DNA of 64,000 nt. Source: a virus. Lineage: Duplodnaviria; Heunggongvirae; Uroviricota; Caudoviricetes. The translations under genes were made by a program, and so were the position numbers. The notes under the pieces were generated by a model. That model had not been told where the DNA came from. It saw only the letters and a list, made by a program, of their open reading frames with translations, and did no database searches. Shown here one piece after another: positions 3,670 through 58,875 of this stretch (positions within the stretch are counted from its first letter, which is position 1; each line of letters opens with the position of its first letter). Location: positions 32,002 through 96,001 of the IMG/VR virus record IMGVR_UViG_3300043464_001836; one strand, written 5' to 3'.

Positions 3670-5091
3670 TCAGTCCCAAGGTTGGTTACCTTTTGGTTTA
3701 GGTTTAGGTATATCTAAATCGTTAGCATCTTCAACTACTGTAGGTGCTTCGGTTTTTTCTTTCTTAGATTTCTTAGTAGGTTTCTCACACTCTGCTGGGT
3801 TAATCTTCAACGTCTCCCAATTAATACCGTTACTAAAGTCAAGAGGTGGACCACCACGAATCTTAGTAGTCTCGAAAGAGATAGTACCGTCATCCTTATC
3901 GTGTGCATCTAGTAGGAAAGCTACGTCACAGCTATCTAGAATACCCTTAGCGAACCTAGTACCTCCATTATCATCAATCTGATATGGTGACACAATACAA
4001 ATGTCGTACTTTCTAGCAAGTTCCTTCAGCTTTTTACTTACAGTGATTTGAGCAGTCCAATCGTACATGCCTCCTTGATTTCCAGGTATTACAATCTGGT
4101 TTAGGTAGTCGATTACTGCTAGCTTGAAGTTATCACCGAACTTAGCTTTCAGCTTTTGCAGGTGTAAGTCGATAGAAGTAATGCTAAGCTCTCTATCGTC
4201 AATAATTACAATCTGATTGTCTGGCTTAAGATGCTTAGTCTTAATTAGAGCAGCCTCAAACTTAAGTACATCACCATGCTCTATATACTCAGCTACTAGG
4301 TCATCTGACTCCGTAAACATTTCAGCTCTAGCTTTAACTAGCTTTAGCTTATCTGAGTCTGATAAAGTATCTTGTTTAAGCTGTATATGTGATACTCCAG
4401 CTCTAATTGACATTAGTCGTTGGAATGTTTCACGACCAGACATTTCAATAGTAAAGTACACACTAGTATGTCCTAGTGCATATTGAGCCTCTACGAAGTT
4501 AGCACAAACGATAGACTTACCAGCACCGCGCTTTCCACCTAGTAAGATAATTTCCTGTCGGTACAAACCGCCTAGAACAGAGTCTAGCGTATTAGAGATA
4601 CCACTAGGAAATCTGATGTACTCTCTATCTACTACTGTATTAAATAGTAGGATGTTATCCATACTAATAATATCTTCAGAAGTATGAGTCTTCTCGTCTA
4701 GCTTCATTACTACTGCACTAAGCTGGTCTTTGATTTCCTGAGTATCCATCATACTCACGTTTTCAACAAACTTAGTAAGCAGCTTTAGTGTTTCGTCTTG
4801 AGTATAGCTATTAATTAGCGCATCAACCGCTACATCTATATCTATTTCGTCTGCGTCTATGTCTAGACTATTTAAGGATGCTACAGAGCTAAGTACTCCT
4901 CCACTTCTCTCATAGGCTGTACCTAATTCCTCGAATGTAGGTATATGCCCATAAGCATCATAGAAAGAAGCAATAGTGGCGAAGATAGTAGTATAGGCTT
5001 GATTGAAGAACGCAAGTTTTAGTTTGGCCCAAGTTGCTAGGTCTTTATCTTTGATAACTTTGTATAAAACAATCGCACCAATATCTGCCAT
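3670..5091 (-). CDS. Replicative DNA helicase, DnaB-like
   Basis: Walker A GGKRGAGKS, a RecA-like core and an acidic C-terminal tail. Confidence 0.75.
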   Translation of the reverse strand: MADIGAIVLYKVIKDKDLATWAKLKLAFFNQAYTTIFATIASFYDAYGHIPTFEELGTAYERSGGVLSSVASLNSLDIDADEIDIDVAVDALINSYTQDETLKLLTKFVENVSMMDTQEIKDQLSAVVMKLDEKTHTSEDIISMDNILLFNTVVDREYIRFPSGISNTLDSVLGGLYRQEIILLGGKRGAGKSIVCANFVEAQYALGHTSVYFTIEMSGRETFQRLMSIRAGVSHIQLKQDTLSDSDKLKLVKARAEMFTESDDLVAEYIEHGDVLKFEAALIKTKHLKPDNQIVIIDDRELSITSIDLHLQKLKAKFGDNFKLAVIDYLNQIVIPGNQGGMYDWTAQITVSKKLKELARKYDICIVSPYQIDDNGGTRFAKGILDSCDVAFLLDAHDKDDGTISFETTKIRGGPPLDFSNGINWETLKINPAECEKPTKKSKKEKTEAPTVVEDANDLDIPKPKPKGNQPWD

Positions 5092-9439: not shown

Positions 9440-10056
9440 TGTATTTTAATTCCATATTTGGTTAGGTGTTCCAAGGAAGCTAGTTCCTCAGCAGGTTGGT
9501 AGGCATTCTGCTGCCACTTCTCGTCTTCTAGGTAGATAGCATATACCTTAGAAGGATAGTTCTTATTAGCTACTTCGTACTTAATACGAGCCATGGACTC
9601 ATATCTAGCAGACCATACTTTCTGACCCTCAGCGAACTCGTCACGTCGTGCAGCCTCTGGGATTAGCTCTGGAGTAGTGTAGCTCCAGCCCATACTACGC
9701 CGAGGGGTCTGCGTCTTCTTAAGAATGTTATCTACAAAAGACGGAGAGCGGTACAAATCTTCAGCAATACTAGAGACAGTAGAGCCTGCTAGGTACGCAG
9801 TTATACTATACTCGATTTCAGATGCTGTGGCTGGAGTATACGCCTTCTGCGCTTTTAACTCTGCAATACGTAGCTTCTTAGCTTTGTAGTTCTCAATAAT
9901 AGTATTGAGACGTGTAGTATTGTAGGTTATGCGAAGAATAGCGCACGCTTCTTTCTTAGTACAAGGCTTCTCGGCTTCTAGAAGACCGATAACCTTTTCC
10001 AGGTTAGATTCAGATAAATCCTCACTGTCCTTAGTTACAGTCTTCTTAGCAGCCAT
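9436..10056 (-). CDS. hypothetical protein
   Basis: ORF in the minus-strand operon. Confidence 0.45.
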   Translation of the reverse strand: MAAKKTVTKDSEDLSESNLEKVIGLLEAEKPCTKKEACAILRITYNTTRLNTIIENYKAKKLRIAELKAQKAYTPATASEIEYSITAYLAGSTVSSIAEDLYRSPSFVDNILKKTQTPRRSMGWSYTTPELIPEAARRDEFAEGQKVWSARYESMARIKYEVANKNYPSKVYAIYLEDEKWQQNAYQPAEELASLEHLTKYGIKIQ

Positions 10057-37868: not shown

Positions 37869-38202
37869 TATGCCACTATCACCCGAAGATAAACAGTTCA
37901 TTAAACAAGAGTACGCTGACGACCCTACTACGGAAAACATTGACTTCCTAAGAAAGAAGTTCTCTGTTTCTACTAGGACGATTAAAGCTGTGCTCACAGC
38001 AGCAGGGTTATACACTAGGGCACCTTATCTAACTAAGACTGGTGAGCTTCCTGTATCTAAGGAGCATATCATTAACTACATTGCTAGTAGCTTGAGGTGT
38101 CCTCCTGAAGAAGTTGAGAGCTTATCTAAAGTAACTAAGCCTGTGCTTAGAATGATTCTTAGAGCCTTAGACCCAGGTAGTGATGACTATTTTAAGCACT
38201 GA
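37858..38202 (+). CDS. hypothetical protein
   Basis: ORF. Confidence 0.4.
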   Translation: MLTNMPLSPEDKQFIKQEYADDPTTENIDFLRKKFSVSTRTIKAVLTAAGLYTRAPYLTKTGELPVSKEHIINYIASSLRCPPEEVESLSKVTKPVLRMILRALDPGSDDYFKH

Positions 38203-38681: not shown

Positions 38682-39422
38682 ATGGTTGAAGATAATGTAG
38701 TTGAAGAGATTTATGCCGTGTTGGTTGAGCAGTTTGGGGTCGACAACCTATTTTTACCTAAGAGGGGTAAAAAGAGACCTAGAACCATTACTTGGAAAGA
38801 CTTTATCAAAGCTACACTAGAAGAAGAGGAATTATATAAGTATTGTGGATACGCTAATACTGGCTCCTTCAGCTCTGGTATAAAGAGAGCACACCCTAGT
38901 ATAGTAAAGGAAAAAGGTAGTAGGCCTTGGTTTCACTTCCTTCTATATTTGGCTGGATATAAGCGCTGTCCAGAGTGTAACAACGTACTAATGGTTACTA
39001 ATTTTAGTTATACTAGTACGCATAAGGATGGCTTGCATACAGAGTGCAAAGAATGCGCAAGAGAATGTGCAAGAGAGTACTATAAGAAAAATAAAGGGTC
39101 TATCTTAGAGAAAGCAAGGGAGTACCAACAAGCTAATAAAGAGCAGTATATGGAGCAGCATAAAAAATACTACCTAAACAATAAGCATATATTTGCAGCA
39201 TATAATGCTAAACGCCGAGCTACTAAGCTACAGGCTTCCCCACTATGGGCAGACCAGGAAAAGATAAAACAGATATACGCAACACGACCAGAAGGTTATC
39301 ACGTAGACCATATAATTCCATTACAACATCCACTAGTATGTGGCCTTCATTGTGAATTTAACTTACAGCACCTACCGGCAGCTGAAAACCTTACTAAGCA
39401 CAATAGGTTTGATTTAGATTAA
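38682..39422 (+). CDS. HNH homing endonuclease (family 1 paralog)
   Basis: Shared N-terminal EEIYAxLVEQFGV...LPKRGKKRPRTITW module and C-terminal HNH module. Confidence 0.8.
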   Translation: MVEDNVVEEIYAVLVEQFGVDNLFLPKRGKKRPRTITWKDFIKATLEEEELYKYCGYANTGSFSSGIKRAHPSIVKEKGSRPWFHFLLYLAGYKRCPECNNVLMVTNFSYTSTHKDGLHTECKECARECAREYYKKNKGSILEKAREYQQANKEQYMEQHKKYYLNNKHIFAAYNAKRRATKLQASPLWADQEKIKQIYATRPEGYHVDHIIPLQHPLVCGLHCEFNLQHLPAAENLTKHNRFDLD

Positions 39423-43753: not shown

Positions 43754-43826
43754 GAACTGAACAGTTCGGCCCCACTAAGAGCTTAAGCTTTGAAGCTCTT
43801 AAGCTCTTAAGCTCTTAAGCTTTGAA

Positions 43827-43940
43827 GTTTGAAGTTTTGAAGTTTGAAGTTTGAAGTTTGAAGTTTGAAGTTTGAAGTTTGAAGTTTGAAGTTTGAAGTT
43901 TGAAGTTTGAAGTTTGAAGTTTGAAGTTTGAAGTTTGAAG
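43827..43940. repeat. Tandem 7-bp repeat (GTTTGAA)n, about 16 copies
   Basis: Uninterrupted GAAGTTT phase. Preceded by (GCTCTTAA)3 and followed by TTTGGGGTC. Confidence 0.8.
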
Positions 43941-43987
43941 TTTGGGGTCGAACAGTTCCTCAAATTCTTTTATAATTATTTCTTTAA

Positions 43988-46352: not shown

Positions 46353-47102
46353 ATGATTGAAGAAGAAATTTATAACCTTTTAGTCGAGCGGTTTGGGGTT
46401 AGCGAAGTCTTTTTACCAAAGAGAGGTAAAAAGAGACCTAGAACCATTACTTGGCTAGAATTTATTAAAGTAGTTCTACAGGTAGAACCAATGGCCCTAC
46501 CAAAGTTTTGTGGGTATTCTAATAGCAACTTTGGTACTGGTGTAAAAACATTGCATAGTGCTATAGTAAAGGAAAAAGGTAAAAGACAGTGGGCTCACTA
46601 CTTTCTAGCTTTGGTTGGCTATAAGAGATGTAGTGAATGTAAGATAATATTACCTGTAAAAACCTTTAACCGGAATACCCATAATACAGATGGCTTGCGA
46701 CCTAGCTGTAAAAATTGTGACGCCACTTATCGTAAGTCTAATAGGGCTAGTAAAAATGCGCTACAGGTTGTCTATTATAAGGCAAATAAAGAGCGTTATA
46801 GAGTTCTTAACAAAAAGTGGCGAGAATCTAATAAAGACCGTATTAAAGAGTACTGTGAAAAGAATAGACATATATTTGCAGCATATGCTGCAAAACGCAG
46901 AGCAATTAAGCTACAAGCAACCCCCAATTGGGCAAACCTCATAACTATAAAACAAATTTATGAAACGTGCCCTGATGGCTATCACGTAGACCATATAGTT
47001 CCTTTACAGAATCCTTTAGTATGTGGCCTTCATTGTGAGTTCAACCTTCAACATCTACCTGCCCTAGAAAACCTAACTAAGAGTAATAAATTTGAAATAT
47101 AG
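46353..47102 (+). CDS. HNH homing endonuclease (family 1 paralog)
   Basis: Shared N- and C-terminal modules. Conserved structured leader 46278..46352. Confidence 0.8.
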   Translation: MIEEEIYNLLVERFGVSEVFLPKRGKKRPRTITWLEFIKVVLQVEPMALPKFCGYSNSNFGTGVKTLHSAIVKEKGKRQWAHYFLALVGYKRCSECKIILPVKTFNRNTHNTDGLRPSCKNCDATYRKSNRASKNALQVVYYKANKERYRVLNKKWRESNKDRIKEYCEKNRHIFAAYAAKRRAIKLQATPNWANLITIKQIYETCPDGYHVDHIVPLQNPLVCGLHCEFNLQHLPALENLTKSNKFEI

Positions 47103-48303: not shown

Positions 48304-49023
48304 ATGATAGAAGAAATTTATACTGCTCTAGTTGAGCAGTTTGGGGTTGGAGTAGTATTCTTACCTAAGTATAGAAAGAATAGAGTTAAGGACATAACTT
48401 GGCTAGAGTTTATCGAAGCTGCTTTAGAAATAAGTACAGAAGAGCTATATAAGTATTGTGGTTACTCTGAGGCTACTAATTTTAGTAGAGGTTTAAGGCA
48501 AGCATACCCACATATAATAAAAGAAAAAGGTGGTAGACCTTGGAGATTATATCTCCCTACACTAGTACATAAGAGGCACTGCTGTTCCTGTGGTAGGTTG
48601 CTAGAGTATATTAATTTTAGTCCAGATAGTACAAAGAAAGATGGTTTACACTCTGAATGTAAATCCTGTAAGTTAGAGTATTACAAAGGTAACAAAAACC
48701 ATATTTTAGATAGACAGAGATACTACCGGCAAGCTAATACTGAACTTATTAAAGAGAGGCATAAAGAGTACTATAGTAATAACAAGTACCTATTTAATGC
48801 AAGAAATGCTAAGCGTAGAGCAACTAAACTACAGGCGACCCCAAATTGGGCAAACCTCATAACTATAAAACAAATTTATGAAACGTGCCCTTCTGGGTAC
48901 CATGTAGACCATATAGTTCCGTTACAGCATGACTTAGTGTGTGGCCTTCATTGTGAATTTAATCTTCAACATTTAACAGCTAAAGAAAACTTAAGTAAAG
49001 GTAATAAATTTGAGGTAGATTGA
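48304..49023 (+). CDS. HNH homing endonuclease (family 1 paralog)
   Basis: Shared modules. Conserved leader 48230..48303. Confidence 0.8.
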   Translation: MIEEIYTALVEQFGVGVVFLPKYRKNRVKDITWLEFIEAALEISTEELYKYCGYSEATNFSRGLRQAYPHIIKEKGGRPWRLYLPTLVHKRHCCSCGRLLEYINFSPDSTKKDGLHSECKSCKLEYYKGNKNHILDRQRYYRQANTELIKERHKEYYSNNKYLFNARNAKRRATKLQATPNWANLITIKQIYETCPSGYHVDHIVPLQHDLVCGLHCEFNLQHLTAKENLSKGNKFEVD

Positions 49024-52416: not shown

Positions 52417-53532
52417 AAATGGAAATAGAAATGGAATTAGAAAGTGTTACTGACCCCAAACTGCAAATCTTTAACTTGGAACCGTTAAGAGTGCTTTCCC
52501 CAAACCGTAAAAGGTGATTAAACTGTAAAATCTAGTTCACTAGAAAACCTAAATGAACTAGAAAGATTGGCCCTGGCTGTTGTAGCTAGGGCTTTTTCTT
52601 TGGTTCTAGGTGGTTTCGACTGTTAAAGCAGTTTGATAAGTTTGGGGTGGGATACAACTAGTCGAACTCTCGATTTTTCCAGTTTGGGGTGACTTTTAAT
52701 GAAGCGAAAAAATACACTTGAACATCGAGCGAATTTTCCGATAAAAATATAGGTGAGATTTTCTGATTTAGATGTGGTAGGAAAATGCGAAAACAGCGAA
52801 AAATAAATTTTGATAATGTCCCTCGCTACGGTTTTCCCAGTTTGGGGTCCACGTTTGCTATCGTTTCTACACTGAAAAATTGCTTGAGAAAAAAAAATAT
52901 TGTTTTTGTAGTGACAGGAGTGTATAATGTTAGGAACAGAACGACAGATGCGCTGCTTTAGAGAAACAGCAGATAGGTTTTTTCACCATGGATAAAAGGC
53001 CTATCTGCTCTATAAAGTCTAAAGCAAGCGCATCTGTACACGAGGGCGAAGCTGTAATTATTAAAATCAAAGAAAAAAAGACGTAAAATAAGAATGTTTC
53101 GGGTTTTTACCGTTTTCCGTTGATTTTAAGCGAACTGAGCCACCCCTTCTCAAGCGGTTTCTAGAGAAAAGAATTTCTAGAAATGTTAAATTAATATTCT
53201 CCAGCCCTTTCTAATTCCTAGAAAGGTAATTTCTTGATATATTTAGGTTTTTTCGACTTTTTGGAATTTTGATTTCTACAATTTGGGGTCAGAAAAGCGC
53301 AGAACCAGTTTGACCCCAAACCGCAAGGGTTTCTAATCCGCTTTTGACCCCAAACTGGAAAAATCGGTCAAACCTATAAAGTTTGTGCTATCTAGTGTGT
53401 AATTTTGAGGTTGAAAGTCTCTACAGTTTGGGGTAAAATATTATTTAAGATGTAAGTGGGTGAGGACTGTGGTTTGTAAGTTCTTATTACCACTTAAAAT
53501 AATACCAAACCAAGTCAGTAAAGGAAACAAAA

Positions 53533-54422
53533 TGAAGCAGAGTAATTCAAAACAGCAAAGTAACCTAGCCTCACTAGAAGTAGACTTCTTACGTGCGGCT
53601 TTAGAAAATCCAAGTCTAATTAAGACTAACGATAAAGACTGGTTAACACACATTAAGCCAGTAGTAACGGCAGCACGCCCTACTATAGAAATTAATAAAA
53701 ATACTAGACTTTCTATGGAGCAACTTTTTAGCTTCTTAGGTACATCTAAAGTCCTAGAAGGAGGTTATACTACAGAGCAAGTACGCCTAGTTTACAGGAT
53801 TCTAGCTACGCACAACCGCTCAGATTACGTAGTGTCACAAAGTAAAAATACACAACACTCTTCTGCGGTACCTATTATCATGGCTGCTTACAGAGATAAG
53901 TACCAGATTAAGTACTCTAGTTGGATTCACGACCATATTGGAATGTCTAACGCTATTTTAGGTAAAACCCTATCCGAGGTTCTAGAGGTTAAAGAATACC
54001 TAGATTCACTAGGTAAGCAAGCAAAGCGTGCTCAAAAAACCTACGACACGGAGATGGGAGATAGTGAGTATGAAGACATGCTAGGCATTGAATCTCCTAG
54101 CCATGAGCCTATTGATGTATTTGACTTTGACTTTAGAGTGGACCTAAAGAATAGAGCCACCAAAAACGGTTCTATTCTAGATACTGGATATGCAACAATT
54201 AAGCGAGTATTCAAACCTGACCACCCACTAGGGTCGGAGTTTTTATCCAAGTTCTACTGGCACATGCTAACGCAGACATGGATTTTCTCACCAAGTATTC
54301 GCCACCGTGACATGATTACTAATTTGCAGGATTTTGATGTACTAGATCCTTCATTGACACCTCTAACAAACTTAGAGGATAAGTCCAACCCTAGCAAGAA
54401 AAGCTCTTTACTAGATTGGTAA
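53533..54422 (+). CDS. hypothetical protein (about 296 aa) embedded in the repeat-rich zone
   Basis: ORF with ribosome-binding site AAGGAAACAAAATG. A rho-independent terminator follows. Confidence 0.45.
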
Positions 54423-54424
54423 CA

Positions 54425-54452
54425 AAAAAGCCGCTAAATAGCGGCTTTTTGC
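54425..54452 (+). terminator. Rho-independent terminator
   Basis: AAAAAAGCCGCTAAATAGCGGCTTTTTGC. Confidence 0.65.
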
Positions 54453-54628
54453 ATTTCTTGACCCCAAACCGTAGAAATCTGACAAATTGACCACAAACCA
54501 AGACATTTTAGAGGTTTTTGTGACTTTTTGTGGGTATTTGAAACTTGTGAGATTTTAGTAACTTTTGAGGTTTGGGGTAAACGGTTCAGCAGTTTTTCCA
54601 GTTTGGGGTAAGGCTTATAAATACACGG

Positions 54629-54658
54629 TTGACAATTATTGCTGTGGAGATGTATAAT
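54629..54658 (+). promoter_or_regulatory. Consensus sigma70 promoter (TTGACA, 18-nt spacer, TATAAT)
   Basis: TTGACAattattgctgtggagatgTATAAT. Confidence 0.6.
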
Positions 54659-54664
54659 AGGCGC

Positions 54665-54750
54665 CGTGTTGAATTTAGCGCAAAACTTACGACTTATAAC
54701 TTATAACTTATAACTTACAAGTCGTAAGCTGCTGGGTTTTTCCCCCAAAC
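54665..54750 (+). ncRNA. candidate small RNA: long hairpin (CTTACGACTT...AAGTCGTAAG) followed by a T-run
   Basis: Transcript predicted from the promoter at 54629. Ten-bp stem with a 23-nt (TAACTTA)n loop, then GGTTTTTCCCCC. Confidence 0.35.
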
Positions 54751-54858
54751 CGCAGAAACTGCTCAACCCCAGAATCTTGACCCTAAACTGGAGAACTTGC
54801 TGAGGTGTGGGTGTTGCATAGGTCACTACAGTTTGGGGTCAGGCACAGTAATTTGCGG

Positions 54859-54888
54859 TTGATTTTATACTATACGGAGATGTATAAT
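54859..54888 (+). promoter_or_regulatory. Near-consensus sigma70 promoter (TTGATT, 18-nt spacer, TATAAT)
   Basis: TTGATTttatactatacggagatgTATAAT. Confidence 0.55.
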
Positions 54889-54894
54889 GGGCGC

Positions 54895-54978
54895 CGAGTG
54901 GAATTTAACGCAAAACTTACGACTTATAAGTTATGAGTTACAACTTATAAGTCGTAAGTTTTGCGTTTTTACCCCAAA
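54895..54978 (+). ncRNA. candidate small RNA, paralog of 54665..54750
   Basis: Same hairpin (CTTACGACTTATAAG...CTTATAAGTCGTAAG) and T-run. Confidence 0.35.
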
Positions 54979-54999
54979 CCGCAGAAACTGCAGAAACTT

Positions 55000-55428
55000 C
55001 TAGGATTTAGTAAGGTCCTTTAATTCCAGTAGTAGATAGTTAATATTACCTACCGCTTTAGCATGATCCTTTTCAATAATAACTGGATCTTGAAGTATTT
55101 TAACAAAGAACTTTATTAGTGCTATTACTTCCTCCATAGTACTTCTAGGGAATAAAAAGTTCCACATATCCTGTTCTTCCGGAGTTGTTAAAGTACTTAA
55201 AACATCTACTTGCAGTATCTTAGGCCCCTCTTCTGAGTCTTCCATAGTAAGAGGTTCGCCACTTAGATACTTCTTATATAAATCACTATCTTTAAAGAAG
55301 GGCTTAGTTTTAGCTTTAACGTAGTACTTTAGTGTACTCTCCGGGATACCTATAGTTTGCGCAATATCTCCCCAAGTGTACCCTTGTTCCCTAGCTAGAG
55401 ATACAAGCTGCTTAATTTTATCATCCAT
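55000..55428 (-). CDS. HTH DNA-binding protein
   Basis: N-terminal HTH YTWGDIAQTIGIPESTLKYYVK. Confidence 0.45.
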   Translation of the reverse strand: MDDKIKQLVSLAREQGYTWGDIAQTIGIPESTLKYYVKAKTKPFFKDSDLYKKYLSGEPLTMEDSEEGPKILQVDVLSTLTTPEEQDMWNFLFPRSTMEEVIALIKFFVKILQDPVIIEKDHAKAVGNINYLLLELKDLTKS

Positions 55429-55657
55429 TTCTTAATTCTCCTATTACTACACTTTTCTATAAACTTACAACTTATGACTCATAACTTACAACTTATAACT
55501 TATAACTTACAAGTCGTAAGTTAATATTTTACCCCAAACCGCTAACCTGTTCAACCTCAGATTTTTACCCTAAACCGCGGAAATTAGGTTAGTCGCTACA
55601 GTTTGGGGTTGCGGGGGACTGCTACAGTTAGTTCAGTTTGGGGTCAGGAATCTGGCC

Positions 55658-55687
55658 TTGATTTTACATGATGTGGAGAAGTATAAT
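55658..55687 (+). promoter_or_regulatory. Near-consensus sigma70 promoter (TTGATT, 18-nt spacer, TATAAT) reading into the GGCGC-repeat and 9-mer array region
   Basis: TTGATTttacatgatgtggagaagTATAAT. Confidence 0.55.
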
Positions 55688-55900
55688 TGGCGCAGACTAG
55701 TACTAGAAACGAATTTTGAGGTTGACTCGGTTTCGTACTGGCGGGCGCAGAGATAATACTGATGTTGTTTCGATTTTGCACTAGGGCGCGTAGATAATTT
55801 TGCGCTTGTTTCACTTTTTCACTGGGGCGCGTGGCAAGCTTAAAATTGTTTCGTCGATTTACTACTCAGGCGCGGCGAAGCCGCGCTGGCCCGGAGGGCC

Positions 55901-56086
55901 AAACGTCAAAAACGTCAAAAACGTCAAAAACGTCAAAAACGTCAAAAACGTCAAAAACGTCAAAAACGTCAAAAACGTCAAAAACGTCAAAAACGTCAAA
56001 AACGTCAAAAACGTCAAAAACGCCAAAAACGTCAAAAACGCCAAAAACGTCAAAAACATCAAAAACATCAAAAACATCAAAAACAT
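55901..56086. repeat. Tandem 9-bp repeat (CAAAAACGT)n, about 20 copies, degenerating into CAAAAACAT x4
   Basis: Read directly from the sequence. The ORFs overlapping this stretch are repeat-translation artefacts. Confidence 0.85.
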
Positions 56087-56877
56087 GGATGCGAATGATT
56101 CTCACTAACTTCCTGGAAAACAACAAATCCACATTGTCTCACGCCGGCGGTAGGCTTGTCAATAACTCTAGAGGGTTATTTACAAAAAACTTTTTTCGTG
56201 GTAGCCATAAGAAAAACTTATAGCCATATAAAAAAATTTCATAGGCCGGCCTGGTGGATAGTATTTTTCTAGTGCTGTCAAATAAAATTTTTCTATAGCA
56301 AAAAACGCTTGTAAGTCTTTGATTCTAAAGAGAAATCCTAGAATCGACGTTCTCCTGCTGGCCTACACCCTGCTATCAATAAAGGGGAAAACGCCTCAAA
56401 ACGCCTCAAAACGCCTATAAACGGCAGTTGCGAAAAAACCACACTTTTTTGCAGGAAATTTGACCGTTAGCGTTTTTCGTGCTAGTGAAAAACCGCGCTT
56501 GACTACCTGCCAAATATCGTGCTATTCGTGCATGAAAAAATAATTGTTGCGCTTGGCTGATTATTGTGTTATCGCGTACACGTCTAAAGACTAAAAAGAG
56601 GCCGGAAAGAAAAAAGCCTTTAAAATCAAAGACTTAAAATTATTTTGAAATATCTTCAAAATTTTTTGAAAAACGCTTTACAGGGTCAGTCATAGTCTGG
56701 ATAATTCATCACATCGAAACAGCAACAGCAGCAAGGCAAGGCAAGGCAAGGCCTCCGGGCCATGCTGGCCAGGCCCTCGCTCTTTAAAAATTTGGAAAAA
56801 TCGGCTTTCTCCGGCGAGAGTATCAAATAGATGCCGCTTTAATAGGCGGCATTATTGGATAATTTTGTCCGAATTAA

Positions 56878-57087
56878 TTGGAGTTTATCATGATTGAAGT
56901 AATGGTTAATGGTAAATGGTTTGCAGTTCGTCAATCTTGCGGGATTTACCAGAAAATGATCTACGTAGAGTCTGGACACGGCATTTATTCCGGTTTTGAT
57001 GAACTGTCCAATATTCAAGGTTGGAAATTGGATGGGGAAATATCCAATTATGCTACCTGTAAGCAATTGCTCAAATTTACACGGTAA
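56878..57087 (+). CDS. hypothetical protein (GC-richer island)
   Basis: ORF whose codon usage differs from the rest of the window. Confidence 0.35.
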   Translation: MEFIMIEVMVNGKWFAVRQSCGIYQKMIYVESGHGIYSGFDELSNIQGWKLDGEISNYATCKQLLKFTR

Positions 57088-57186
57088 GAACTAATCAGGC
57101 ATTAACGCTTAATAATTAGGCGTTAATACCGGGCTATTTCAAAAAACCCGATTTCCCGTTTTTCAATTTTTTTTGGAGTAAATAGC

Positions 57187-57606
57187 ATGGCCGAAAGCAA
57201 AAAAACCCCGACGTGGACGCCGGAACAGACTGTTTCTCTTGTGGCCGCATGGGATGCGGTTAACCGGGACAATAAGCGTATCGACGAAGTAGCGGCAAAG
57301 ATGGGCCGTAGTGCCGCGTCCTGCCGCATGAAGCTTGTTCGGGAAGGCTTGTATCAAAAAGCGGAAAATCTGACAAAAACGGGGGAAAGCGTAATTTCCC
57401 GCGAGGAATTGGCTGATTCTATCGCCGCCTATCTGCCCGCCACCGTTTCTGATGACGTTAGCAGCCTCGCCAAGACGAATAAGCGAATTCTCAAAGCAAT
57501 CAAAAAATTGCTGGATGAAAACGCTCAATTCCGGAAAGCGGCAATGGAATCTTTCGAGACTGACGCGGAAACCGTGGAAACGGAAAACCCGGAATTGGCT
57601 GATTAA
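57187..57606 (+). CDS. hypothetical protein (island)
   Basis: ORF followed by a terminator. Confidence 0.4.
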   Translation: MAESKKTPTWTPEQTVSLVAAWDAVNRDNKRIDEVAAKMGRSAASCRMKLVREGLYQKAENLTKTGESVISREELADSIAAYLPATVSDDVSSLAKTNKRILKAIKKLLDENAQFRKAAMESFETDAETVETENPELAD

Positions 57607-57613
57607 TTAATCC

Positions 57614-57640
57614 ACGCCGGGGCAATTCCCGGCGTTTTAG
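57614..57640 (+). terminator. Rho-independent terminator
   Basis: CGCCGGGGCAATTCCCGGCGTTTT. Confidence 0.6.
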
Positions 57641-57733
57641 GAAATCAAAATGCGCTTATCAATATTTGTGGCGATTGTTTCGTGTCTTAGTTTTATCACG
57701 GCATTAATCAATTTTTTCTGTAAAGGTTAACCA

Positions 57734-57997
57734 ATGGAAATCTTGCCATACTTAGGAATTATGCTATTGACTGCCGGAAGTGTAGGCATTCGAGTTGCGC
57801 AGCAATTAAACGTAACCCGTGGATACTTTATTAGGGCATTCTTTACAAGTTACGTGTTCACGGCATTTGATGCCTTAGTCGTTGGAGTGTATGCAAAGTT
57901 AATGCTAGACGGCGACTATATCAAATTGATATTCGCCGGTACTGGTTCCGCATTAGGTGGACTAATTGTAATGTTTTTTTATAGGAAATCGAAATAA
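57734..57997 (+). CDS. small membrane protein (island)
   Basis: Two to three hydrophobic helices. Confidence 0.4.
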   Translation: MEILPYLGIMLLTAGSVGIRVAQQLNVTRGYFIRAFFTSYVFTAFDALVVGVYAKLMLDGDYIKLIFAGTGSALGGLIVMFFYRKSK

Positions 57998-58701
57998 TGG
58001 CAAAGAAGGCATGGTATTTGCTGGTTGATACCGAGACTACCCTATCGGGGCGCGTGGTTGATTTTGGCGCCATTATCGTTGATAGAAATGGGGAAATTCA
58101 TAAAAGAATCGCCGTATTAATCAAGGGCATTTTCGGCGTGGAAGAATTGTTTTTTGATGTTAATTCCAAAGACGAAATTTGGACAAAACGCGGATTGGAG
58201 AAACGGAATCAGAATTACGTGGAACATTTGAATAATGGAACACGAATGCTTGCGAGTGTATCGGCCATTAATAAATGGCTTATGCAAGCAATGATAACTT
58301 ATTCTCCAAGTGTAACCGCTTTCAATCTTGCTTTTGACAAAGACAAATGCCAAAAAACCGGAATTGACTTATCCATCTTTACCGATCAATTCTGTTTATG
58401 GCATCTTGCTTGCGGCCATTATGCGAACACGAAAGCTTACCGCGCGTTTATTCTGGATAACCATTGTATTAATCCGCCCACGGAATTGCGCAATTGCACG
58501 TATCAGACTAATGCCGAAGTAATGGCGTCTTATCTTTCCGGTGGCATGTTGCCACCGGAGCCGCATACAAGTTTGGAAGACTGTATCGACTACGAGTTGC
58601 CGATATTGAGAGCCATTCTCAAACGTAAAAAATGGCGTGAGAGGATAAAGCCGTATAACTGGCGGGATTATCAAATTCGGGATGCCTTCGTTGCAAAGTA
58701 G
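57997..58701 (+). CDS. DEDDh 3-prime-5-prime exonuclease (DnaQ/oligoribonuclease-like)
   Basis: Exo I LLVDTETT, Exo II FNLAFD, Exo III HTSLEDC (H-x4-D). Confidence 0.6.
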   Translation: MAKKAWYLLVDTETTLSGRVVDFGAIIVDRNGEIHKRIAVLIKGIFGVEELFFDVNSKDEIWTKRGLEKRNQNYVEHLNNGTRMLASVSAINKWLMQAMITYSPSVTAFNLAFDKDKCQKTGIDLSIFTDQFCLWHLACGHYANTKAYRAFILDNHCINPPTELRNCTYQTNAEVMASYLSGGMLPPEPHTSLEDCIDYELPILRAILKRKKWRERIKPYNWRDYQIRDAFVAK

Positions 58702-58714
58702 GACAGGAACCACC

Positions 58715-58828
58715 GGCCTGTGGTGGCCTGTGGTGGCCTGTGGTGGCCTGTGGTGGCCTGTGGTGGCCTGGGGTGGCCTGGGGTGGCCTGGGGTGGCCTG
58801 GGGTGGCCTGGGGTGGCCTGGGGTGGCC
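58715..58828. repeat. Tandem 8-bp repeat (GGCCTGTG x5, then GGCCTGGG x7)
   Basis: Read directly from the sequence. Intergenic. Confidence 0.85.
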
Positions 58829-58875
58829 TGGGGTGGCAGTAAAAACTTTTCTTTTATCTTTTTGGGGTAATTAGC

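What the first reader, a model, noticed from the sequence alone, without database searches (positions are those of the whole stretch)
54629..54978. Tandem pair of consensus sigma70 promoters each driving a roughly 85-nt hairpin RNA
TTGACA-18-TATAAT (54629) and TTGATT-18-TATAAT (54859) are each followed by a near-identical transcript. Each transcript contains a 10-bp stem (CTTACGACTT/AAGTCGTAAG) closing a (TAACTTA)n loop, then GGTTTTTCCCCC and the ACCCCAAACCGCAGAAACTGC motif. These look like abundant early small RNAs, or promoter-terminator decoys, with no coding capacity. A third copy of the promoter (55658) reads into the GGCGC and 9-mer arrays. A fourth hairpin copy without a promoter lies at 55450..55560.
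Basis: seen in the sequence. Interest (0 to 1): 0.7.

Follow-up and report, generated by a model that had tools for sequence, protein, structure and literature searches.

The report
Duplicated promoter–hairpin cassette, T5-like phage
Two copies of a strong bacterial-type promoter, each followed by a long hairpin, sit in the repeat-filled control region of a T5-like phage beside a small DNA-binding-protein gene; they probably make short non-coding RNAs that match that gene's leader, but nothing has been measured.

Summary
The sequence features are real. Promoters lie at 54629 (12/12 consensus), 54859 and 55658. Hairpins lie at 54686-54728 and 54907-54967.

The two units are a recent 230-bp tandem duplication, not independent designs. 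A close relative (L189) has one promoter followed by two hairpins and no third promoter.

The window is a distant T5-like phage. The 2.5-kb repeat region 54423-56889 lies between the convergent early genes and an A2/A1-type pre-early operon that runs into the terminase genes. This is the same place as T5's untranslated repeat regions.

It is flanked by the same 7-bp repeat arrays. The "fourth hairpin" is this gene's leader, not a plus-strand hairpin.

- Copy 2 looks like a canonical terminator. Copy 1 does not.
- The promoter-1 RNA would pair over 31 contiguous bases with the leader of the 142-aa gene. That leader is the only non-self target in the window.

Best reading: short terminated RNAs acting in a local regulatory module, as antisense RNA and/or a heptad operator. 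This rests on sequence inference only, and only about five near-identical relatives exist. Interest is moderate.

The parts
54425..54450 (+). Intrinsic terminator ending the convergent early gene 53460-54422 (320 aa). It marks the left edge of the non-coding control region.
   Evidence: 11-bp stem, 5 GC pairs, T-run. Conserved in L189.
54570..54609 (-). Two copies of CAGTTTGGGGT (the reverse of ACCCCAAAC) upstream of promoter 1. The proximal copy ends 19 nt before the -35 element.
54629..54658 (+). Promoter P1, TTGACA-18-TATAAT, followed by the GC-rich discriminator AGGCGCC. The predicted transcription start is about 54665.
   Evidence: 12/12. (conserved blocks). An identical promoter is present in L189.
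54686..54728 (+). Hairpin 1. It has a 10+3+5-bp stem built from heptads A[C/G]TTA[T/C][A/G]. The T-run 54737-54741 comes only after an 8-nt spacer, followed by CCCCCAAACCGCAGAAAC.
   Evidence: I13. (-27.6 kcal/mol, z -4.0).
54780..54839 (.). Inverted pair of the ACCCYAAAC motif (54780 +, 54831 -) between hairpin 1 and promoter 2.
54859..54888 (+). Promoter P2, TTGATT-18-TATAAT, followed by GGGCGCC. The predicted start is about 54895.
54907..54970 (+). Hairpin 2. It is a perfect 26-bp stem with a 9-nt loop, running into TTTTT and then ACCCCAAACCGCAGAAAC. It has the shape of a canonical terminator on the + strand. It lies 33 nt beyond the stop codon of the convergent 142-aa gene.
   Evidence: I10, 100% complementary. 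(-42.2 kcal/mol, z -9.5). Variants in L189 and L191 still fold.
55000..55428 (-). Conserved 142-aa ORF (HTH142). Its N-terminus has only sub-threshold helix-turn-helix matches. It is flanked on both sides by the heptad arrays.
   Evidence: 95-100% identical in 5 contigs and found nowhere else. (sub-threshold HTH Pfam hits, residues 4-43). (three N-terminal helices, low-confidence model).
55462..55520 (-). Direct array of about 8 heptads ending in AAGTCGTAAG. It is the DNA for the predicted 5' leader of HTH142. Positions 55490-55520 are identical to 54698-54728 in hairpin 1.
   Evidence: D2; 31-nt identity, 40/44 overall; duplex -61.8 kcal/mol.
55526..55554 (-). Predicted promoter of HTH142, TTGAAC-17-TAAAAT.
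   Evidence: The same site is present in L189.
55658..55687 (+). Promoter P3, a third paralogue of the promoter module without a heptad hairpin. It is present in L110 and absent in L189.
55720..56084 (.). Neighbouring repeat block: four units of about 41 nt containing GGCGC, GC-rich palindromes at 55866-55900, and (AAACGTCAA)x20 at 55901-56084. It is given as context. In position it corresponds to the tandem arrays of T5 Repeat Region 3.
   Evidence: In L189 an unrelated 25-mer array replaces the 9-mer array.
56890..58701 (+). Pre-early-type operon: a 65-aa ORF, an A2 homologue (57187-57606), an 87-aa membrane protein, and a 234-aa ORF in the slot where L189 carries a T5 A1 homologue. It is given as context and defines what the repeat region is.
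   Evidence: Synteny with T5 and Vibrio phage PG07.

Best explanation
The finding is a recently duplicated regulatory cassette in the non-coding control region of a T5-like phage.

**What each cassette contains**
- A host-type (sigma-70) promoter, preceded by a phage-wide CAGTTTGGGGT site.
- About 20 nt downstream, a palindrome built from 7-bp repeats.
- Then a T-run.

**Proposed mechanism**
- Host RNA polymerase starts at the promoter.
- At copy 2 it terminates after about 76-80 nt. Copy-1 transcripts probably read on to the copy-2 terminator.
- The product is a short non-coding RNA. Termination also stops the strong promoter from reading antisense into the convergent 142-aa gene.
- The same heptad sequence forms the 5' leader of that gene's mRNA, so the RNAs are complementary to it: 31 contiguous bases for promoter 1.
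- Most plausibly they act as antisense regulators of this putative DNA-binding protein. The heptad arrays could also serve as that protein's operator sites.

**Status of each step**
- Shown: the sequence elements, their folding, the complementarity, the synteny, and the variation among relatives.
- Inferred: promoter activity, termination, RNA accumulation and pairing in vivo.
For: **Promoter**
- P1 is a 12/12 consensus match.
- The -35 and -10 elements are conserved and the spacer is diverged among three paralogues and the L189 orthologue.
- The promoters belong to the phage's TTGATT-17-TATAAT promoter family.

**Hairpin and terminator**
- Hairpin 2 has a perfect 26-bp stem followed directly by U5, with z -9.5.
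- All five distinct hairpin variants keep strong folding despite a heptad gain and a loop inversion: window copies 1 and 2, L189 copies 1 and 2, and L191 copy 2. Their z-scores run from -4.0 to -10.0.
- There is no co-directional ORF before 56890, and no ORF in the units that starts with ATG.

**Conservation**
- The cassette is 88.8% identical between the window and L189. The flanking 320-aa gene is 71% identical and the A2 gene 80%.

**Link to HTH142**
- The P1 RNA pairs with the predicted HTH142 leader at -61.8 kcal/mol (shuffles -22.8 +/- 4.4). P2 gives -47.4 kcal/mol.
- The leader is the only non-self target in 64 kb.
- A 31-nt stretch is identical on the + strand.
- Heptad arrays and AAGTCGTAAG occur only around this gene.
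Against: - There are no expression data.
- Only about five contigs carry the region, and most are 94-99% identical, so there is no covariation evidence.
- In L191 three substitutions in the leader array are not compensated in copy 1. Its copy-2 heptads are flipped, so they have the same sense as the leader rather than being complementary.
- The two mismatches in hairpin 1 are A.C and C.C on the + strand. The A.C becomes a G.U wobble on the - strand, which is why the - strand folds better (-35.4 against -27.6 kcal/mol). So nothing points to selection on the plus-strand RNA specifically.
- Copy 1 lacks a stem-adjacent U-tract.
- Promoter copy number and hairpin copy number vary between close relatives.
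- The complementarity follows automatically from any direct repeat transcribed in opposite directions.
- The HTH142 transcription start is only predicted, from a 9/12 promoter.
Confidence: 0.4

Rival explanations
1. This is a DNA-level operator system. The 7-bp repeats, in arrays of 6-8 with mixed orientation, are binding sites for the adjacent 142-aa protein (putative helix-turn-helix). The protein represses its own promoter and blocks P1 and P2 from sites at +1 to +65. The short RNAs are by-products. It would work like the heptad operators of the omega repressor of inc18 plasmids.
For: - The heptad arrays occur only at three sites, all within 500 bp of the gene and flanking it.
- Heptad number and orientation change between near-identical strains while the arrays persist.
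- The protein has sub-threshold helix-turn-helix matches at residues 4-43 and three predicted N-terminal helices.
- The omega precedent is from my own knowledge, not tested here.
Against: - Every array next to P1 or P2 keeps inverted terminal arms and strong hairpin potential. A pure direct-repeat operator would not need that.
- The helix-turn-helix assignment is below the Pfam thresholds.
- Operators placed 20-65 nt downstream of the start site are unusual.
- No binding data exist.
Confidence: 0.25
2. The palindromes and motif pairs act as DNA. They would be part of the T5-type border between first-step-transfer and second-step-transfer DNA: an injection-stop signal, the end of the terminal repeat, or nick sites. 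The promoters would be incidental neighbours.
For: **Synteny with T5 and Vibrio phage PG07**
- The order is: convergent early genes, then the repeat region, then a divergent small gene, then more repeats, then A2/A1-type genes, then TerS and TerL.

**T5 literature**
- T5 Repeat Region 3 is likewise full of palindromes, inverted repeats and a tandem array (the BF23 paper).

**Weaker leads**
- 11-12-mers are shared with T5 RR2/RR3 at 56089-56110.
- GGCGC follows each -10 element, and the phage encodes a gene matching the T5 nicking-endonuclease Pfam family.
Against: - There are no DnaA boxes (TTWTNCACA) anywhere in 53-60.5 kb. These are the hallmark of Davison's iss model.
- The T5-RR3-like elements and tandem arrays lie at 55.7-56.2 kb, outside the finding.
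- The terminal-repeat boundaries cannot be located from an assembled contig.
- The conservation of the promoter elements argues that transcription matters.
Confidence: 0.12
3. Either the units make abundant trans-acting small RNAs aimed at host mRNAs, or they are promoter-terminator decoys that soak up host RNA polymerase.
For: - The promoters are consensus-grade and followed by hairpins.
- T5-like phages rely on host RNA polymerase and very strong promoters (plus my own knowledge).
Against: - The host is unknown, so no target search is possible.
- Two or three promoters cannot titrate cellular polymerase unless they are amplified.
- The 18-bp spacer and the GC-rich discriminator are sub-optimal features for a maximal-strength promoter.
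- A specific phage target already explains the sequence.
Confidence: 0.1
4. This is a transcription-activated replication origin. A strong promoter feeds an RNA into an AT-rich, easily unwound heptad element. The resulting R-loop primer would work as at T4 ori(uvsY)/ori(34) or the tandem-promoter primary origin of T7.
For: - The architecture is a promoter followed directly by a 70-85% AT repeat element, duplicated in tandem.
- The T4 and T7 precedents are from my own knowledge.
Against: - The GC-skew profile shows nothing special here beyond the switch in gene orientation at about 35 kb.
- T5 origins were mapped near the genome centre (as cited).
- The hairpin and terminator would release the RNA.
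- There are no replication genes nearby.
Confidence: 0.08
5. This is largely non-functional repeat turnover. Slippage and recombination between short repeats in a hyper-variable spacer created the copies. Only one promoter and one terminator, serving the convergent gene, matter.
For: - Copy numbers differ between close relatives.
- The two L189 hairpin units are essentially identical 79-bp units.
- The tandem arrays are swapped wholesale between relatives.
Against: - The core unit of promoter plus hairpin is retained in all contigs that cover it.
- It is at least as conserved as the flanking genes.
Confidence: 0.05

Closest known systems
Untranslated repeat regions of the T5 first-step-transfer DNA (RR1-RR3, including the injection stop signal; Davison bioRxiv 10.1101/866236; BF23 paper PMC10644984)
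   Same: - The genomic position matches: between convergent early genes and the A2/A1 pre-early operon that precedes the genome end and the terminase genes.
- Both are dense in direct repeats, inverted repeats, palindromes, tandem arrays and several strong sigma-70 promoters.
- In both the function is experimentally unresolved.
   Different: - No DnaA boxes.
- The repeat sequences are unrelated, apart from two short k-mer matches outside the finding.
- T5 has an 8-gene divergent operon where this phage has one 142-aa gene.
- Promoter-heptad-hairpin cassettes are not described for T5.
Phage antisense RNAs: P1/P7 c4 RNA acting on the ant leader through duplicated complementary segments, P22 sar, lambda OOP (own knowledge)
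   Same: - A short, highly structured RNA.
- Extended complementarity to the leader of a neighbouring regulatory gene.
- The complementarity was created by a sequence duplication.
   Different: - Nothing has been shown experimentally here.
- c4 is processed from the same operon's transcript.
- sar and OOP overlap their targets, whereas this RNA would act from 500-800 bp away.
- There is no match to any Rfam family.
Heptad operators of the omega repressor (inc18 plasmids such as pSM19035; own knowledge)
   Same: Arrays of 7-bp repeats, variable in number and orientation, at several promoters clustered around the regulator's own gene.
   Different: - Omega is a ribbon-helix-helix protein. Here the only candidate binder carries sub-threshold helix-turn-helix matches.
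- The heptads here lie downstream of the start sites and form long palindromes.
- The heptad sequence is different.
Lambda PR'-tR' 6S RNA, and promoter-proximal terminators in general (own knowledge)
   Same: A strong promoter followed within about 100 nt by a terminator, giving a short constitutive RNA.
   Different: There is no antiterminator and no downstream co-directional operon. The next gene is convergent.

Membership tests
Sigma-70 promoter | -35 and -10 hexamers close to TTGACA and TATAAT, with a 16-18-bp spacer | tested here: met
   12/12 for P1 and 10/12 for P2 and P3, all with an 18-bp spacer.
Sigma-70 promoter | Hexamers conserved while the spacer drifts, across paralogues and orthologues | tested here: met
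Sigma-70 promoter | Initiation by the host holoenzyme | not testable with these tools
   Needs in vitro transcription or 5'-end mapping.
Intrinsic (Rho-independent) terminator | A stable stem-loop immediately followed by a U-tract | tested here: inconclusive
   - Copy 2 meets it: a 26-bp stem, then UUUUU.
- Copy 1 does not: there is an 8-nt gap before the U5.
- The tool's scan flagged hairpin 2 only on the minus strand, because its + strand loop of 9 nt exceeds the scan's loop limit.
Antisense small RNA | Own promoter and terminator, with no ORF | tested here: met
   Fully met for copy 2, partly for copy 1.
Antisense small RNA | Extended complementarity to a target mRNA | tested here: met
   31 contiguous bp, -61.8 kcal/mol against -22.8 +/- 4.4 for shuffles. 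The target's 5' end is only predicted.
Antisense small RNA | Complementarity maintained by compensatory change in relatives | tested here: not met
   the L191 leader substitutions are not compensated, and the L191 copy-2 heptads are flipped. There are too few sequences for a firm verdict.
Antisense small RNA | The RNA is detected and the target responds | not testable with these tools
   No transcriptome data, and the host is unknown.
Any curated RNA family (Rfam 15) | Score at or above the family's gathering threshold | tested here: not met
   only generic hairpin (miRNA-model) matches, far below threshold.
T5-type injection stop signal / Repeat Region 3 | Untranslated, repeat-rich DNA between the pre-early genes and the convergent early genes | tested here: met
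   Synteny. Repeats.
T5-type injection stop signal / Repeat Region 3 | Paired DnaA boxes (TTWTNCACA) in IRD'-spacer-IRC' | tested here: not met
   none in 53-60.5 kb. There are three one-mismatch TTATCCACA sites (55672, 56696, 58452), plus ATCCACA at 56128.
T5-type injection stop signal / Repeat Region 3 | Lies at the inner end of the long terminal repeat and halts DNA transfer | not testable with these tools
   The terminal-repeat ends cannot be read from a collapsed assembly. The function needs infection experiments.
Omega-type heptad operator | Arrays of at least two contiguous 7-bp repeats, direct or inverted, at promoters near the regulator gene | tested here: met
Omega-type heptad operator | Bound by a ribbon-helix-helix repressor of the omega family | tested here: not met
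   no ribbon-helix-helix match. The neighbouring protein shows only weak helix-turn-helix signals.

The most novel reading that the evidence does not exclude
A T5-like phage carries a previously undescribed, duplicated small-RNA gene at the border of its pre-early control region. The RNA was created by copying the heptad leader of a neighbouring regulator gene. It acts in trans as an antisense switch on that regulator, timing the hand-over from pre-early to early expression. This would be a P1 c4-like circuit in the Demerecviridae, where no regulatory RNA is known.
Probability: 0.2. Interest if true: 0.6.

Novelty: new variant of a known kind. Interest (0 to 1): 0.45.

Why it matters
The non-coding DNA at the border between first-step and second-step transfer in T5-like phages has been known for decades, and its function is still unexplained. 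This distant relative keeps the position and the repeat-rich character of that region. It replaces the DnaA-box architecture with promoter-hairpin cassettes, a genome-wide ACCCCAAAC motif, and a small gene with a weak helix-turn-helix signal flanked by heptad arrays.

If the short RNAs exist and pair with that gene's leader, it would be the first RNA-based regulatory circuit in this phage family. It would also be a simple, testable handle on how pre-early and early expression is switched. If they do not exist, the locus still shows that DnaA boxes are not a universal feature of these border regions.

Tried and rejected
**DNA searches that found nothing**
- Megablast and blastn of the region and of 16 kb of flank against 50,697 phage records gave no match.
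- The CAGTTTGGGGTNAGG pattern in IMG/VR gave only single chance hits.
- The hairpin-plus-motif pattern gave zero hits in both metagenome and viral contigs.

**Protein-guided searches**
- The 142-aa and 320-aa proteins found nothing in IMG/VR.
- The conserved 87-aa protein found nothing in metagenome contigs, and only L110 again in IMG/VR.
- A homologue search for the 142-aa protein across 5.8 billion proteins found a single 4-member cluster.
- A tblastn of the 142-aa protein against the phage records gave no match.

**Family and structure searches**
- Rfam gave nothing above threshold.
- Pfam and PHROGs gave nothing significant for the 142-aa and 320-aa proteins.
- A PDB sequence search gave nothing significant.
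- The AlphaFold single-sequence model was too poor (pLDDT 57.7) to justify a fold search.

**Relatives and literature**
- More distant relatives found through TerS (for example L131) have a different gene arrangement and no comparable cassette, so they were not informative.
- Literature searches for T5 small RNAs and for a nick-site consensus turned up nothing usable.

**Readings rejected**
- A coding reading of the units: the only ORFs are GTG-started, 41-43 aa, and overlap the promoter.
- A DnaA-box iss.

Full report
**What is there**

Reading 54000-57000 and the scans confirm three paralogous promoter modules.
- P1 is TTGACA-18-TATAAT at 54629 (12/12).
- P2 is TTGATT-18-TATAAT at 54859, and P3 is the same at 55658.
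- Aligned together with the orthologue from a relative, they share invariant blocks: CAGTTTGGGGT-AGG upstream, TTGA in the -35, and GGAGA-GTATAAT-GGCGC around the -10. The distal spacer has drifted.

That pattern is what selection on a promoter should leave. The phage's other promoter-like sites follow a TTGATT-17-TATAAT theme. This fits a phage that uses the host polymerase.

P1 and P2 are each followed after about 20 nt by a palindrome built from 7-bp units A[C/G]TTA[T/C][A/G]. The palindromes are closed by CTTACGACTT/AAGTCGTAAG.
- As RNA, copy 2 forms a perfect 26-bp stem that runs straight into UUUUU (-42.2 kcal/mol, z -9.5).
- Copy 1 forms a weaker 10+3+5-bp stem (-27.6 kcal/mol, z -4.0), and its U-run starts 8 nt later.
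- So copy 2 looks like a canonical terminator and copy 1 does not. P1 transcripts would probably read on to hairpin 2.

The two units are one 230-bp tandem duplication, 83% identical (D4).

A minus-strand ORF of 142 aa (55000-55428), which I call HTH142, converges on P2.
- It is conserved at 95-100% in five metagenomic contigs and found nowhere else among 5.8 billion proteins.
- It has only sub-threshold helix-turn-helix matches at residues 4-43, and three predicted N-terminal helices in a low-confidence model.

The 'fourth hairpin' (55450-55560) is not a plus-strand hairpin (-11.9 kcal/mol).
- It is a direct array of about 8 heptads ending in AAGTCGTAAG.
- It lies between a minus-strand promoter (TTGAAC-17-TAAAAT, 55554-55526, also present in L189) and the start codon of this gene. 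It is therefore that gene's leader.

Heptad arrays and AAGTCGTAAG occur only at these three places, on both sides of the gene.

**Genomic context**

The window is a distant T5-like phage.
- TerL is about 50% identical to those of Vibrio, Yersinia and Salmonella Demerecviridae.
- TerS matches phrog_3802 and, in precomputed Pfam hits, T5_Terminase_small. A gene matching the T5 nicking-endonuclease family follows TerL.
- There are 14 tRNA genes.
- There is no DNA-level match in 50,697 phage records.

Downstream of the repeat region on the plus strand lie, in order:
- a 65-aa ORF;
- a homologue of T5 A2 (28% identity, E 6e-5; phrog_1725);
- an 87-aa membrane protein;
- in the relative L189, a 549-aa homologue of T5 A1 (36% identity, E 9e-87). 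The window itself has an unrelated 234-aa ORF in that slot;
- TerS and TerL.

T5 and Vibrio phage PG07 have the same order: A2, A1, dmp, the genome end, TerS, TerL. In both, repeat-rich untranslated DNA lies upstream of A2, and again between a divergent small-gene operon and the convergent early genes.

The 2.5-kb region 54423-56889 is therefore the positional counterpart of the T5 untranslated repeat regions. Those include the injection stop signal and the inner end of the terminal repeat.

The resemblance is positional and architectural only.
- There are no DnaA boxes.
- The repeats are different.
- The elements most like T5 Repeat Region 3 sit at 55.7-56.2 kb, outside the finding. These are the GC palindromes, the (AAACGTCAA)x20 array, and a short AATGATTCTCA match.

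**Comparison with relatives**

L191, L192 and L003 are about 99% identical to the window. L189 and L190 are about 94% identical in the gene and 83-89% in the cassette. L110 is 92% identical and begins exactly at P3.

In L189:
- There is one promoter, identical to P1 except for one spacer base.
- It is followed by two essentially identical hairpin-T5-ACCCCAAACCG units with no second promoter.
- P3 is absent. In its place are eight tandem 25-mers carrying GTTTGGGGT.
- The 9-mer array is replaced by an unrelated 25-mer array.

In L191 the copy-2 hairpin has its centre inverted, an extra heptad, and a copy-1-type tail.

Despite these rearrangements every hairpin variant still folds strongly, with z-scores from -4.0 to -10.0. 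The cassette is at least as conserved as the flanking genes. So the conserved core is one promoter plus a heptad palindrome plus a T-run. The 'tandem pair' is a lineage-specific duplication.

**The wider motif**

ACCCYAAAC occurs 31 times in the window against 0.87 expected. Nineteen copies lie in intergenic DNA between 52.4 and 55.7 kb.

The usual layout is: a terminator or hairpin, then one or two forward copies, a spacer, one or two reverse copies, and then a promoter. It is probably a binding site for an unidentified phage regulator. It is not part of a small RNA as such.

**Mechanism**

The heptad stretch 54698-54728 is identical to 55490-55520 on the same strand (31 nt; 40/44 over the whole unit). 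A plus-strand RNA from P1 is therefore complementary to the minus-strand leader of the 142-aa gene.
- The duplex energy is -61.8 kcal/mol against -22.8 +/- 4.4 for shuffles. P2 gives -47.4 kcal/mol.
- The leader is the only non-self target in the 64-kb window.

This gives a concrete model. The cassette makes short terminated RNAs that act as antisense regulators of the neighbouring putative DNA-binding protein. Hairpin 2 also keeps convergent transcription apart.

The same repeats equally fit a DNA operator model, in which the 142-aa protein binds the heptads, as in omega-type heptad operators. The two models are not exclusive.

Several observations argue against a purely RNA-level reading.
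- There are no compensatory changes.
- The heptads are flipped in L191 copy 2.
- The two hairpin-1 mismatches are A.C and C.C on the plus strand. The A.C becomes a G.U wobble on the minus strand, which is why the minus strand folds better.

My confidence in each reading:

| Reading | Confidence |
|---|---|
| Short-RNA / antisense module | 0.40 |
| Heptad operator | 0.25 |
| T5-type border DNA element | 0.12 |
| Host-directed small RNA or polymerase decoy | 0.10 |
| Transcription-activated origin | 0.08 |
| Repeat turnover without function | 0.05 |

**Novelty and verdict**

The locus belongs to a known kind of region, the untranslated control and border region of T5-like phages. Its content is new:
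- promoter-heptad-hairpin cassettes;
- an orphan gene flanked by heptad arrays, with only a weak helix-turn-helix signal;
- a genome-wide ACCCCAAAC motif;
- no DnaA boxes.

No Rfam family matches. All functional statements are inferences from sequence. The comparative set is tiny, and further searches found no more copies. Interest is moderate: a testable candidate for the first regulatory RNA circuit in this phage family, but nothing categorically new.

Noticed in passing
window 57997-58701; L189 1683-3332: The close relative L189 has a 549-aa homologue of T5 A1 (36% identity) in the pre-early operon. In the same slot the window phage has an unrelated 234-aa ORF (N-terminus LLVDTETT, phrog_20187), and no A1 homologue exists anywhere in the 64 kb. 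Homologues of the 234-aa protein sit next to dmp-like genes in more distant relatives (L125, L154, L133, L131).
   Followed up: partly
window 55901-56084; L189 about 4740-5050: The (AAACGTCAA)x20 tandem array is replaced at the same position in L189 by an unrelated 25-mer array (about 9 copies). L189 also has an extra (TATTTTA)n array. Assemblies of relatives break at this array: the L191 and L192 contigs end at window position 55866.
   Followed up: partly
window 54660, 54890, 55689, 55744, 55785, 55826, 55869: GGCGC is concentrated here. Nine of its 27 matches in the window fall in this stretch, at seven sites (the palindromic GGCGCC sites at 54660 and 54890 each count twice). One copy directly follows each of the three -10 boxes. 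The phage encodes a gene matching the T5 nicking-endonuclease Pfam family, and the annotated T5 nick at 9748/9749 lies in ...CCCTGC|GC. These may be strand-specific nick sites.
   Followed up: no
window 56089-56110 and 56778-56792: ATGCGAATGATTCTCACTAACT shares 11-12-mers with the repeated AATGAGAATCATT palindromes of T5 Repeat Region 3 and with RR2. The 15-mer CGCTCTTTAAAAATT is identical to T5 4975-4989, upstream of the A2 operon. Neither is conserved in L189, and the 15-mer is also absent from L110 (which does carry the first element), so the significance is uncertain.
   Followed up: partly
window 56162-56133 (minus strand); L189 4678-4707: A conserved leftward promoter (TTGACA-18-GACAAT with an upstream TG) reads into the tandem array and the GGCGC repeats, opposite to P3.
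   Followed up: no
window 58715-58837 and 43821-43944: There are further tandem arrays: (GGCCTGGGGT)x12 just after the 234-aa ORF, and (TTTGAAG)x17.6 directly abutting a GTTTGGGGT motif.
   Followed up: no
window 38682-39422, 46353-47102, 48304-49023: Three paralogous ORFs of about 240 aa each carry GTTTGGGGT inside a conserved N-terminal coding motif (…LVEQFGV…). This is the same 9-mer as the intergenic regulatory motif.
   Followed up: no
window 37939-38181: A second, A2-like paralogue (35% identity over 82 aa) lies in the early-gene block.
   Followed up: no
IMG/VR loci L111-L188: Many related metagenomic contigs begin within 1 kb upstream of the small terminase gene. This suggests a physical genome end or an assembly-breaking repeat there in this phage group.
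   Followed up: no
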